Below are positions 9,101-12,100 of a DNA stretch of 64,000 nt, in pieces. Source of the DNA: Trypanosoma brucei (Eukaryota). The DNA lies in contig CP000068.1 of assembly GCA_000002445.1 (NCBI GenBank), positions 1,408,001 to 1,472,000 of the forward strand, in the 5' to 3' direction. The position numbers are program-made. Positions within the stretch are counted from its first letter, which is position 1. Each line of letters begins with the position of its first letter.

Positions 9101-12100
9101 CTCCTCTCCAGTTGCAATACGTTTGCCGTGTGTGGCGTCTCCGATCCATCTACTTTCTCATACAAGTATGGCACACTCAACACACGCGTGTGTATCGGAT
9201 GACTGTGTGAGAACATTTTTTCCACTGTATAGACCGTTGCCTTACCGTTCGCTTTCCTTGTTAAATAGTATTCTATTGCTCGTCTGTAAGCAACATCATC
9301 TATCTTGTGAAGGCGGGCCTCATTCATGGCATCTTCCCGATTCGCGTACTTTGGAATGCTCGCGATAACATGTTCCTTCTGCGCATGTACTCGGTCAAGC
9401 TTTTTTTTGTATGATGGAGAATCATTGAGCCAGCATGCAGCGGTACCATAGCATAATTTCGCCTGGATTAAGGCTAAGTAAAATGCTCGGATGCTTTCTT
9501 TACTATCCTCCTATTCAGGTGATGCAACAGCACTTAGTTTCATTAATCTCATATTTTCTGCTGTTTGTAGGGTGTGAGCATGTTTGTTTACATCCTTGTG
9601 TGGCTACATTGTCATCCCAAGGAGTCTGAGATATCTCTTCTAATGTAATCTGTACTCTCCCACCATTAGGTGTAATTAGTCTCTGTCTCTCACCACAAAG
9701 AACGTCTATTGCGTTTTTTCTGCAGACACCTTCATATAGCGCTCTGCTGACCAGCTCACTATACAATCCAATCCTGTTTGTATCGTCTACCGAATAGCTT
9801 CCATGTCAGTGTTAGAAGACACTATCGTGAGGTCGTCTGTGAGTAAGCAGTGTTGAAAGGCTGGTATGGCATTTAATTTCGCGCTGAGGAACTCTATTGC
9901 GATAATAAAAAGCAACGGCCACAACACGGAACCTTGTACAACACCACACGTGAGCTGTATTTTCTTTGAGGGGGTGTTGTTTATTAATGCTACTGCAGTC
10001 CTTCGCTACAGAAAATTAGCAACCCATGCAATGAGGCGCATGTTCACCTCATATCTTTTTAATGCATCCATTATGCACATGTGATCCACAGAGTCAAATG
10101 CCCTAGCATAATAAATGAATACCGTAGCAGTTTTTTCTCCTGCTACTCTATGAGTCATGGAGTCTGTGCGTTTCATGGTGACGTCTAATATAGACTTCCC
10201 CGGACGAAAATCAGTTTGCTTTGGTTGTAGCTTACACTCTACTGTGTCTTGTATGCGTCACGCTACATTCCTCTTCATGAGTTTACAGAGGGTGCTTTTG
10301 AGCGTGATGGGCCGGAACGATGACATACACTTGGCCGGTTTGTTGGGTTTGAGCATAGGGACAATAACGTCATGCTTCCACTTTTTCGGCATCCTGCGTC
10401 TCTGTAGGCTACAGTTGAAAAGCTTGAGGACACATTACTTGGTACGGCATCCTAATTTCCTCAGTTGTTTACGATGTATATCATCTTTACCGGAGGCAGT
10501 TCTTGAAGAGAGTTCCTTTAGTGCTGTCTCAAGTTCTGCCATCGTAACTGGTTTATAATTTACGTTTCTCGATAGGATATACTCATGAGAGAAGCATCTG
10601 GTGCCTTCGTCGACCGCTCTCTCTTTACATTTCTGCTTGCTACTTGGCTTGAAGTATACGTGTTAGAGGGTGGTCATTCACTACCAGAACTGGAGATGAC
10701 AGTGGCCTCGGTTCATATATGGATTTAACTAAATTCTAACTTTTTGTATCGATCACTGAAATCTTTGACGCATTTTCCCTCCAATGTTGTAGGGACGTTT
10801 CAGCGAGAACCTTCCTTCTCTTGTTTATAAGGTCATCCCTCTGTGCTTCTCATTTGTGCACTCCCTTATTCTCGTGTCTAGCCCAGTTAGTTGTCGTTTC
10901 CAGAGTTGTGGCGATACCTCCTCACCATTCGGTATTGTTTCCTTTGTTGCTGTGCGAATGCCTTTAGTCTCTGCTTTTTTTATGGCATCCACGTTCTTTC
11001 TTAACTTCCTTCGTTTTTTCAACATTATTATACCACACACTTTTCCAAACTTCCTCCAACTTGTTTTGTTCCAAGCATACAACGTCCTTCTTGGCTTTGT
11101 AATGGCGATCATTTCTAAACCTATGCCAATGCATACCTCAAATGTTATCCAGTAGTTGTCACTGTCTAGAGTGAGGCTTGCCTCACATCTTGTGACTTCG
11201 CAGTCTCTGTACATCGTAATGTCGGACGACGACCTAATTGCCGTTTGTGGAATTCCTCTCGTTGGTGCGCCATCATTTTGCATTTCTGACATCGTTTTGT
11301 AGACACCAGTTTACAGTGCATTCTCCAGCTGCATCATTTGGGTGAAGCGTGTCCCATAACTCATGATGGGCGTTTGTACCGCATCCCATCAACAGTGTTC
11401 TATTTGAGCTCTCAAAGATTTCAAGCGTGGATATAGTGACATTTTTCTGTGGAAAGTAAGCTGATTTTACTGTTAATATCAGATCAGCTAAAAAAAAACA
11501 GTCTTGCCGAGACTCTTTCCGGCATATCCTCCTCTTTCAGACCTTGGATGACTCCCACGCCATCTTTCACCAAAGTCGATTCCCTACCATGTGAAGAATG
11601 CTCTATCCCCATGTGTTCATATATACTGATTTTTAATGTGCAGCACTCTTCTGCTGCAAAGTGAGTCTTGTGCAATAGACAGAAAACTACCATATCCTTG
11701 TGGAGCTTCTTCTCTGAGGCGATCCGCTTACCATGGGAGAGACCCCCGGCATTCCACTGGGATCCACGAATGACGAGACCGGGATTCTGTTCCACATATC
11801 CGCTAAGAAGCATACGTATCCCAATCGATGCACTGTTGCACGTTCAGAGGAGCAGTCTAATATATTGCTTCATCCCAGAGGACTGATGCTGCTTTTTGCT
11901 TCTTTAGCTGTCGCCGAAAGCCTGTTTCCAGCCCCAATTCTGTCGTACCGGGTATGATGCGGACACTTGGCTTCCACAGACTAGACGGGTACTAGACCCT
12001 GGCATCACGATAATGTGTCCGGCGTCAGCAGGGAAATTTATAGATTTATATAAAATTCTTAAAATCCTTAAAACTGTAAAATACTAAAATTCTTCAAAGC

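What the first reader, a model, noticed from the sequence alone, without database searches (positions are those of the whole stretch)
12033..12090. Both DIRE-like copies inserted into VSG 3' flanks, in opposite orientations, each ending in a short poly(A)
Copy A begins ~60 bp after the stop of the VSG pseudogene 12090-13716 (same sense as the VSG). Copy B sits ~255 bp after the stop of the VSG pseudogene 41760-43314 (antisense). In both cases the remainder of the conserved VSG 3' flank and the next cassette's 70-bp repeat lie on the other side of the element. Both elements end with a7 or ataaaaa tails, so these were retroposition-type insertions into the AT-rich 3'UTR block. This suggests that block is a preferred target. 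It would decouple those VSGs from their 3' homology used in gene conversion.
Basis: partly seen in the sequence, partly recalled or inferred. Interest (0 to 1): 0.5.

Follow-up and report, generated by a model that had tools for sequence, protein, structure and literature searches.

The report
Two dead retrotransposons behind VSG genes
Two old, decayed copies of an extinct trypanosome retrotransposon each inserted independently just downstream of a silent surface-antigen (VSG) pseudogene, at the short T/A-rich site its endonuclease is already known to cut, so the arrangement is real but ordinary.

Summary
Copy A (6337-12033, minus strand) starts 50 bp after the true stop of a B-type VSG pseudogene. 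Copy B (35864-41553, plus strand, antisense to the VSGs) ends 162 bp after the true stop of an A-type VSG pseudogene. For both, the rest of the VSG 3' flank and the next 70-bp repeat lie on the far side.

Both are full-length degenerate ingi-clade elements (DIRE). Their closest relatives are Tvingi and Tcoingi (48-49% aa), the ingi6-type lineage that is extinct in T. brucei. Both are preceded, in register, by the published ingi6 target signature TTTTN5A^A plus 12 bp. I confirmed that signature on intact T. vivax and T. congolense relatives.

VSG 3' flanks are 8% of the non-element DNA but hold 27% of such sites. Two of two insertions in flanks is therefore unremarkable (p about 0.07), and no special targeting is needed. 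The "decoupling" idea applies only to copy A, whose 16-mer-like block is displaced. Both VSGs keep their C-terminal homology.

One new detail: the 90% identity between A and B is a mosaic of about 81% background and tracts of about 100% (2.4 kb, 425 bp, 171 bp), which points to later gene conversion. The window is T. b. brucei TREU927, where these elements are already catalogued.

The parts
6337..12033 (-). Copy A: full-length degenerate ingi6-type retroposon (TbDIRE), 5697 bp, same sense as the VSGs
   Evidence: It is colinear with the ingi ORFs at 26-38% aa across several reading frames. ORFs are short and fragmented.
35864..41553 (+). Copy B: full-length degenerate ingi6-type retroposon (TbDIRE), about 5690 bp, antisense to the VSGs
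   Evidence: RVT_1 E 2e-22 on the conceptual translation. Many in-frame stops. Closest proteins are T. vivax and T. congolense RT polyproteins at 48-49% identity and 100% coverage.
12034..12055 (-). Copy A target signature and 5' target-site duplication: TTTT (12055-12052), ATATA, A^A (12046/12045); 12-bp duplication ATCTATAAATTT (12045-12034)
   Evidence: It is in the same register as the intact T. congolense (L001) and T. vivax (L002) elements and matches the signature in PMC3820030.
6326..6337 (-). Candidate 3' copy of copy A's target-site duplication, ATTATGAAACTT
   Evidence: It matches the 5' copy 7/12 ungapped, or 10/13 with two one-base gaps. This is not significant alone (P 0.59). An unoccupied paralogous site, ATTTTATGAAATTTC, is at 41693-41679.
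35842..35863 (+). Copy B target signature and 5' target-site duplication: TTTT (35842-35845), ATTAA, A^A (35851/35852); 12-bp duplication AATTTTGAAATA (35852-35863)
   Evidence: The register is within 1 nt of the alignment-based element start.
41552..41563 (+). Candidate 3' copy of copy B's target-site duplication, AATTTTAGATTT
   Evidence: It matches 8/12 ungapped, which is not significant alone (P 0.29). The two flank halves overlap by 18 profile positions.
12084..13716 (-). VSG-A, a B-type VSG pseudogene; true stop TAG 12086-12084
   Evidence: VSG_B E 6.7e-72 on the 430-aa ORF. The C-terminal part is in another frame and ends ...FLVNKKLSLIMAAAMSFEEF*.
12034..12083 (-).
6120..6336 (-). Distal part of VSG-A's 3' flank, running into the first degenerate 70-bp repeat; includes the 16-mer-like block 6327-6310
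   Evidence: nhmmer profile positions 163-343, E 1.4e-10. See also the alignment.
41716..43314 (-). VSG-B, an A-type VSG pseudogene; true stop TGA 41718-41716
   Evidence: Trypan_glycop E 7.3e-43 on the 300-aa ORF. The GPI-signal frame is read.
41554..41715 (-). Proximal 162 bp of VSG-B's 3' flank, including the 16-mer-like block 41632-41615
   Evidence: nhmmer profile positions 1-182, E 1.5e-6.
35675..35863 (-). Distal part of VSG-B's 3' flank plus the first 70-bp repeat core (35704-35686)
   Evidence: nhmmer profile positions 165-349, E 6.9e-18; 70-bp core found.
8091..10490 (-). Near-identical tract 1 in copy A (partner in copy B: 37409-39808): 2400 columns with 4 single differences
   Evidence: The background outside the tracts is 81% identity. 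Both copies share the same broken ORF fragments here.
7232..7656 (-). Identical tract 2 in copy A (partner in copy B: 40243-40667), 425 bp; a third identical tract is A 6838-7008 / B 40882-41052, 171 bp

Best explanation
Copies A and B are two independent, ancient insertions of the T. brucei counterpart of Tvingi/Tcoingi. This is an ingi6-subclade non-LTR retrotransposon, now extinct in T. brucei and known as TbDIRE. They inserted by target-primed reverse transcription.

**Proposed steps**
1. The element's APE-type endonuclease recognised TTTTN5A^A and nicked there. The T-rich 3'-OH primed on the RNA's poly(A) tail, and a second nick 12 bp away produced a 12-bp target-site duplication.
2. One usable site lay on the VSG-sense strand, 50 bp after the stop of a B-type VSG pseudogene. 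That gave copy A.
3. Another site lay on the opposite strand, 162 bp after the stop of an A-type VSG pseudogene. That gave copy B.
4. VSG 3' flanks are 77% A+T and carry this motif at 4 times the density of the rest of the array, so they are a likely landing place without any dedicated targeting.
5. After insertion both copies decayed: stops, frameshifts, shortened A tails and eroded duplications. They diverged to about 81% identity.
6. Later, ectopic gene conversion between the inverted copies, 24-30 kb apart, made about 3 kb of them identical.

**Shown:** the element identity, ends and orientation; flank reconstitution; the signature in register; the mosaic identity.

**Inferred:** the enzymatic steps (by homology and from the literature), the order of events, and gene conversion as the cause of the mosaic.
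For: **Element identity**
- The full-length Pr77 5' hallmark is present, and nucleotide homology to Tcoingi and Tvingi continues well past it. Homology to Tbingi stops there.
- Both copies are colinear with the ingi polyprotein, and RVT_1 scores E 2e-22.
- The best database hits are T. vivax and T. congolense RT polyproteins at 48-49% identity and 100% coverage.

**3' end**
- The 3' end ...CAGATTAAA(T)GCACAAT + A-run is shared with an intact T. vivax element.
- That T. vivax element has a perfect 12-bp duplication, AAGAATGCAATA.

**Target signature**
- TTTT at -22..-19 and AA at -13/-12 are in register for A, B, the T. congolense element (L001) and the T. vivax element (L002).
- The signature occurs at 0.0048 per position and strand in the other flanks. 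Seeing it in register twice (allowing +/-1 nt for B) has probability about 7e-5.
- PMC3820030 reports this signature upstream of all eight ingi6-related TbDIRE.

**Flank reconstitution and independence**
- Flanks reconstitute a VSG 3' flank.
- The flanks are unrelated in element orientation.
- The host VSGs are of different types.
- Background identity is only 81%.

**Motif density**
Against: - The target-site duplications are not significant on their own in this AT-rich DNA (P 0.59 for A, 0.29 for B).
- Copy A's proximal flank piece is too short to score alone (E 0.8). A's joined flank also lacks about 80 profile positions, although uninterrupted flanks vary in length in the same way.
- Copy B's 5' end is mutated (ACATTG instead of CCCTGG), so its start is known only to +/-1 nt.
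- Pfam does not detect the endonuclease domain in the decayed copies. Only homology to the ingi N-terminus shows it.
- No other T. brucei DIRE copies could be retrieved, so target choice rests on n = 2.
Confidence: 0.85

Rival explanations
1. VSG 3' flanks are a genuine insertion hot spot for this family, beyond what the short endonuclease motif predicts. Possible causes would be chromatin, replication or recombination intermediates, or a longer recognition sequence conserved in the flank.
For: - Both copies in the window lie in flanks, which cover only 8.4% of the non-element DNA (p about 0.007 under uniform insertion).
- The proximal flanks of the two host VSGs resemble each other. VSG-B's flank carries an unoccupied paralogue of copy A's site.
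- In T. congolense contig CAEQ01002527 an intact relative starts 616 bp downstream of a VSG_B gene, in the same sense.
Against: - Under a motif-only model the result has p about 0.074.
- n = 2.
- The two insertions are at different places in the flank (profile positions about 81 and about 175) and on opposite strands.
- The T. vivax relative I examined has no called VSG gene within the 14-kb locus.
- The third retroelement in the window, a Tbingi, sits in a VSG coding region. It belongs to another subclade with a different signature, so it is only a weak control.
Confidence: 0.15
2. A and B are products of one segmental duplication, with inversion, of a VSG-plus-DIRE unit. On this view they are not independent insertions.
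For: Overall identity is 90% over 5.7 kb within one 64-kb window. Both copies lie next to VSG 3' flank sequence.
Against: - Flanks are unrelated in element orientation (z 0.2 and -0.3) but homologous in VSG-sense orientation.
- The element has opposite orientation relative to its VSG in the two cases.
- The host VSGs are B-type and A-type.
- The insertion points differ within the flank.
- Each copy has its own in-register target signature.
- Background identity is only 81%.
Confidence: 0.03
3. The 100%-identical tracts between A and B are an assembly or consensus artefact of the reference genome rather than biological gene conversion.
For: Long repeats in subtelomeric arrays are hard to assemble. 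I had no read data and no second assembly to check. Look-ups of orthologous contigs returned nothing.
Against: - The tracts have sharp borders against about 80%-identical DNA and occur as several separate patches of 2.4 kb, 425 bp and 171 bp. This is the usual picture of conversion tracts.
- The flanking diverged DNA should anchor the reads.
- Segmental gene conversion is well documented in these arrays (PMC12137147).
Confidence: 0.15

Closest known systems
TbDIRE of the ingi6 subclade ("TbDIRE2"; Bringaud, Berriman & Hertz-Fowler 2011, PMC3820030, citing Bringaud et al. 2006 and 2009)
   Same: Both are about 5-kb degenerate ingi-related elements of T. brucei, extinct, and preceded by TTTTxxxxxA^A + 12 bp. 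The window is from TREU927, the genome in which eight such copies were reported. A and B are therefore very probably two of them.
   Different: Nothing structural differs. The papers I could read do not mention the position in VSG 3' flanks or the conversion mosaic between copies. Fig. S1A of that paper, which lists the copies, is not held as text, so membership of that exact list is inferred.
Tvingi (T. vivax) and Tcoingi (T. congolense), potentially active autonomous retroposons
   Same: They are the closest proteins (48-49% identity, full coverage). Nucleotide homology covers Pr77 and the following 100 nt and more, and the 3' terminus is shared. The target signature is the same, with a 12-bp duplication that is perfect in the T. 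vivax copy.
   Different: Tvingi and Tcoingi have long intact ORFs and long poly(A) tails. A and B are riddled with stops and frameshifts, have A3-A7 tails and eroded duplications, and are about 270 bp longer (5.69 kb against 5.42 kb).
Tbingi/RIME (ingi4 subclade), including the copy in this window at about 21502-26830
   Same: Same clade and architecture (Pr77, APE-RT-RNase H-zinc finger), and also found in VSG arrays.
   Different: Identity to A and B is only 26-38% aa, with no nucleotide similarity beyond Pr77. The upstream signature differs (PMC3820030). The window copy interrupts the 5' part of a VSG coding region, not a 3' flank.
Ingi/RIME insertions at one conserved position of RHS (retrotransposon hot spot) genes, and the L1 endonuclease TTTT/AA preference
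   Same: In each case a short endonuclease recognition motif carried by a repeated host sequence makes that sequence a recurrent landing site. This comparison rests on my own knowledge of Bringaud et al. 2002 and Jurka 1997.
   Different: RHS insertions recur at the same nucleotide position in many paralogues. Here the two insertions are at different positions and on different strands of the flank.

Membership tests
ingi/L1Tc-clade non-LTR retroposon | Conserved 77-79-nt 5' hallmark (Pr77) at the very 5' end | tested here: met
   A, B, the window's Tbingi, the T. congolense element and the T. vivax element align from the first base (CCCTGG...GGTGCCAGGGTCTAGTAC). Only three such hallmarks exist in the window. 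Rfam has no hit at gathering score.
ingi/L1Tc-clade non-LTR retroposon | Colinear endonuclease - reverse transcriptase - RNase H - C2H2 finger coding capacity | tested here: met
   tblastn of the window's ingi ORFs covers A and B end to end, in order. RVT_1 E 2e-22. The endonuclease and RNase H parts are seen only through homology to ingi, not by Pfam.
ingi/L1Tc-clade non-LTR retroposon | 3' A-rich tail and 12-bp target-site duplication | tested here: inconclusive
   Short A runs are present (A7 and A5). Candidate duplications match 7/12 and 8/12, which is not significant in AT-rich flank DNA (P 0.59 and 0.29).
[quoted passage not shown] | About 5 kb long, with the coding region destroyed by many stops and frameshifts | tested here: met
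   The longest ORF is 187 aa (A) or 163 aa (B). There are 11 stops in the 502-codon stretch spanning the 3' end of the endonuclease region and the RT region of B. A needs three reading frames for the same stretch.
ingi6 subclade (Tvingi/Tcoingi/TbDIRE2) | Upstream signature 5'-TTTTxxxxxA^Axxxxxxxxxxx-3' immediately before the element | tested here: met
   A matches exactly in register. B matches with its start at 35864, 1 nt from the alignment-based start. The same holds in L001 and L002. The signature is taken from PMC3820030.
ingi6 subclade (Tvingi/Tcoingi/TbDIRE2) | Phylogenetic affinity to Tvingi/Tcoingi rather than Tbingi | tested here: met
   Identity is 48-49% to the T. vivax and T. congolense proteins, against 26-38% to the window's Tbingi. 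No formal tree was built. PMC3820030 is itself inconsistent about whether Tvingi/Tcoingi are labelled ingi1 or ingi6.
Tbingi/RIME (ingi4) | Nucleotide identity to ingi and the ingi4 upstream signature | tested here: not met
   No BLASTN match between A or B and the ingi at 21.5-26.8 kb. The upstream sequences differ.
VSG cassette 3' flank | Colinear match to a profile of uninterrupted flanks, from the stop codon to the first 70-bp repeat | tested here: met
   B: profile positions 1-182 plus 165-349. A: positions 1-81 (weak) plus 163-343. The joined lengths, about 238 and 311 bp, fall within the 231-312 bp range of intact flanks.

The most novel reading that the evidence does not exclude
VSG 3' flanks could be a true, conserved hot spot for ingi6-type retroposons in salivarian trypanosomes. 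One hint is the intact T. congolense relative 616 bp downstream of a VSG. The resulting inverted DIRE pairs might then act as long-range recombination substrates inside silent arrays. The 2.4-kb identical tract between copies 24-30 kb apart would be a footprint of such exchange. On this reading, dead retroposons would help shape array rearrangement and affect how accessible individual VSG cassettes are.
Probability: 0.12. Interest if true: 0.45.

Novelty: already known. Interest (0 to 1): 0.2.

Why it matters
It matters little. The elements, their extinct status and their target signature are published for this very genome. Their position behind VSG genes follows from the motif being common in AT-rich flanks.

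Two modest points remain:
- Copy A separates one VSG pseudogene from its 16-mer-like 3'UTR block, while copy B does not. Any effect on cassette-type gene conversion is therefore local and probably irrelevant for pseudogenes.
- The mosaic identity suggests that ectopic gene conversion has acted on non-VSG DNA between inverted repeats 24-30 kb apart in a silent array. This could serve as a neutral marker for how often, and over what distance, array sequences exchange.

Tried and rejected
- **Exact-protein look-ups.** I tried three window ORFs and the 100%-identical TREU927 VSG (P0064) to fetch the source or allelic contigs. Nothing is on record. I therefore had no second assembly, no empty-site allele and no other TbDIRE copies.
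- **Protein search with a DIRE conceptual translation.** It returned no T. brucei proteins at all, only T. vivax and T. congolense relatives and distant LINEs. A genome-wide survey was impossible with these tools.
- **Rfam scan of the whole window.** No family reached gathering score, so the Pr77/HDV-like ribozyme was not detected that way.
- **Target-site duplication significance test.** It was not significant. I do not claim the duplications as evidence.
- **Apparent similarity of the two 3' flanks in element orientation.** This appeared in a global alignment and would have meant a larger duplicated unit. Shuffling showed it is AT-rich noise (z 0.2), so I rejected it.
- **First 70-bp-repeat regex.** It was too strict and I replaced it.
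- **Bringaud et al. 2009** (the ingi subfamilies paper). It is not held. Fig. S1A of PMC3820030 is not held as text.
- **Tbingi at 21.5 kb.** I searched for a 12-bp duplication and found none.
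Full report
**Setting**

The window is a silent VSG array with about 15 cassettes, all on the minus strand. One intact VSG is 100% identical to a T. brucei brucei TREU927 protein on a 1.6-Mb record. Pfam confirms A-type and B-type VSG domains. A profile of the 3' flanks finds a flank after every cassette. The window holds only three elements with the Pr77 hallmark of trypanosomatid retroposons: copy A, copy B and one Tbingi.

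**The observation**

Self-BLAST shows a single inverted pair, 6411-12056 against 41479-35841, at 89.9% identity over 5666 columns. I fixed the exact ends by reading the sequence and by aligning to intact relatives.

- Copy A is 12033 to 6337 on the minus strand, the same sense as the VSGs.
- Copy B is 35864 to 41553 on the plus strand, antisense to the VSGs.
- Copy A starts with CCCTGCTGACGCC..., the first bases of the hallmark.
- Both copies end with ...CACAAT(G)A followed by a short A run, A7 in copy A and ATAAAAA in copy B. An intact T. vivax element ends the same way before its long poly(A).
- The frame-correct stop of VSG-A is TAG 12086-12084, so copy A begins 50 bp after it.
- The frame-correct stop of VSG-B is TGA 41718-41716, so copy B ends 162 bp after it.

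The description is otherwise correct.

**Do the flanks reconstitute a VSG 3' flank?**

I built a profile of 350 positions from seven uninterrupted flanks of the window.

| Copy | Side | Window coordinates | Profile positions | E-value |
|---|---|---|---|---|
| B | VSG side | 41754-41542 | 1-182 | 1.5e-6 |
| B | far side | 35847-35675 | 165-349 | 6.9e-18 |
| A | VSG side | 12113-12033 | 1-81 | 0.8 |
| A | far side | 6307-6120 | 163-343 | 1.4e-10 |

- For B the two halves are complementary, with an 18-position overlap.
- For A the short proximal piece is weak on its own.
- In a multiple alignment both joined flanks run colinearly with intact flanks into the 70-bp repeat.
- Their joined lengths, about 238 and 311 bp, fall inside the 231-312 bp range of intact flanks.

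**What the elements are**

- The ORFs of the window's Tbingi align to A and B end to end and in order, at 26-38% identity. The alignments change reading frame repeatedly and contain many stops.
- A conceptual translation of B hits RVT_1 at E 2e-22.
- The longest ORFs are 187 aa (A) and 163 aa (B).

These are therefore DIRE, degenerate ingi/L1Tc-related elements.

- The closest database proteins are intact RT polyproteins of T. vivax Y486 and T. congolense IL3000, at 48-49% identity and full coverage.
- At the nucleotide level A and B stay alignable with those elements for more than 100 nt past Pr77. The Tbingi diverges there.
- PMC3820030 states that T. brucei has no active ingi6-type element. 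It reports eight long extinct ones (TbDIRE, "TbDIRE2"), all preceded by 5'-TTTTxxxxxA^Axxxxxxxxxxx-3' with a 12-bp target-site duplication.

**Target signature**

- Upstream of copy A the sequence reads TTTT ATATA A^A TCTATAAATTT | CCCTG. This matches the signature exactly in register.
- Upstream of copy B it reads TTTT ATTAA A^A ATTTTGAAATA | TACATTG. The register is within 1 nt of the alignment-based start.

As positive controls I fetched two intact relatives.

- The T. congolense element (L001, start 5550) is preceded by TTTT CTTAA A^A TTAGGAACAGG.
- The T. vivax element (L002, about 5868-11277) is preceded by TTTT ATTTT A^A AGAATGCAATA.
- The T. vivax element also carries a perfect 12-bp duplication, AAGAATGCAATA, after its poly(A) tail.

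In the other VSG flanks the signature occurs at 0.0048 per position and strand. Finding it in register at both elements is very unlikely by chance, about 7e-5. This marks the 5' junctions as original insertion junctions.

The vestigial duplications are compatible with the model. For A they are ATCTATAAATTT and ATTATGAAACTT. For B they are AATTTTGAAATA and AATTTTAGATTT. They are not significant in this 77% A+T DNA, so I do not count them as evidence.

**Independent insertions, not a duplication**

- In element orientation the flanks of A and B are unrelated (z 0.2 and -0.3). In VSG-sense orientation they are homologous (z 12.9 and 2.7).
- The host genes are a B-type and an A-type VSG.
- The insertion points differ within the flank, at profile positions of about 81 and about 175.

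**Is the flank a preferred target?**

- Outside the three elements, 3' flanks make up 8.4% of the DNA but hold 27% of TTTTN5AA sites, at 9.4 per kb against 2.3 per kb.
- Two of two in flanks has p about 0.007 under uniform insertion but about 0.074 under a motif-only model.
- The known relative site specificity of the endonuclease, plus the composition of the flank, is a sufficient explanation.
- A stronger preference cannot be excluded with n = 2.
- The T. congolense relative lying 616 bp downstream of a VSG_B gene is a hint, not a test.

**Does it decouple the VSGs from their 3' homology?**

The 3' homology used in VSG conversion is the roughly 200 bp that encode the C-terminus plus the 3'UTR with its 16-mer (PMC2900300).

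- Copy A lies 9 nt upstream of the 16-mer-like block (6327-6310) and so moves it 5.7 kb away.
- Copy B lies 61 nt downstream of its VSG's block (41632-41615) and leaves it in place.
- Both genes keep their C-terminal coding homology.
- Both are pseudogenes. Such genes contribute by segmental conversion inside the coding sequence (PMC12137147).

The proposed consequence is therefore at most local and applies to copy A only.

**An extra finding: the A/B identity is a mosaic**

- Outside three tracts the copies are about 81% identical.
- Inside the tracts they are essentially identical: 2400 columns with 4 differences (A 10490-8091 / B 37409-39808), 425 bp (A 7656-7232 / B 40243-40667) and 171 bp (A 7008-6838 / B 40882-41052).
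- The identical tracts carry the same broken ORF fragments in both copies. Homogenisation therefore happened after the element had decayed, and it does not reflect selection on coding sequence.
- Ectopic gene conversion between inverted repeats 24-30 kb apart is the simplest reading.
- An assembly artefact cannot be excluded without reads or a second assembly.

**Verdict**

The retroposition reading is right. The "preferred target" follows from a published endonuclease signature, and the functional consequence is overstated. The elements are very probably two of the eight ingi6-type TbDIRE already described in TREU927.

Noticed in passing
window 8091-10490 with 37409-39808; 7232-7656 with 40243-40667; 6838-7008 with 40882-41052: Copies A and B are a mosaic. 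Three tracts are about 100% identical (2.4 kb with 4 differences, 425 bp, 171 bp) within a background of about 81% identity. This looks like gene conversion between inverted, already degenerate copies 24-30 kb apart. An assembly artefact is not excluded.
   Followed up: partly
window 62240-62366 (and the VSG at 62534-63787, minus strand): There is an interstitial telomere tract of about 16 copies of TTAGGG (read on the minus strand) about 170-290 bp downstream of a VSG. That VSG's 3' end has the canonical expressed-type 3'UTR (TTTCCCCCTCTC...TGATATATTTTAACAC). This looks like a former chromosome end, or a telomeric VSG, embedded in the array.
   Followed up: partly
window about 21502-26830 (plus strand): A Tbingi has long ORFs of 762, 608 and 216 aa (RVT_1, endonuclease, RNase H, zinc finger). 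It interrupts the 5' part of a VSG pseudogene (21500-20144, minus strand) rather than a 3' flank. I found no clear poly(A) tail and no 12-bp target-site duplication at its 3' side.
   Followed up: partly
L001 (T. congolense IL3000 contig CAEQ01002527) 3453-5550: An intact Tcoingi-like relative of A and B begins 616 bp downstream of a VSG_B gene, in the same orientation. It is preceded by the TTTTN5A^A signature. The contig ends before the element's 3' end, so the duplication could not be checked.
   Followed up: partly
window 41679-41693 (minus strand): VSG-B's own proximal 3' flank contains ATTTTATGAAATTTC, an unoccupied paralogue of the site where copy A inserted behind VSG-A. The proximal flanks of the two host VSGs are similar even though the genes are A-type and B-type.
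   Followed up: no
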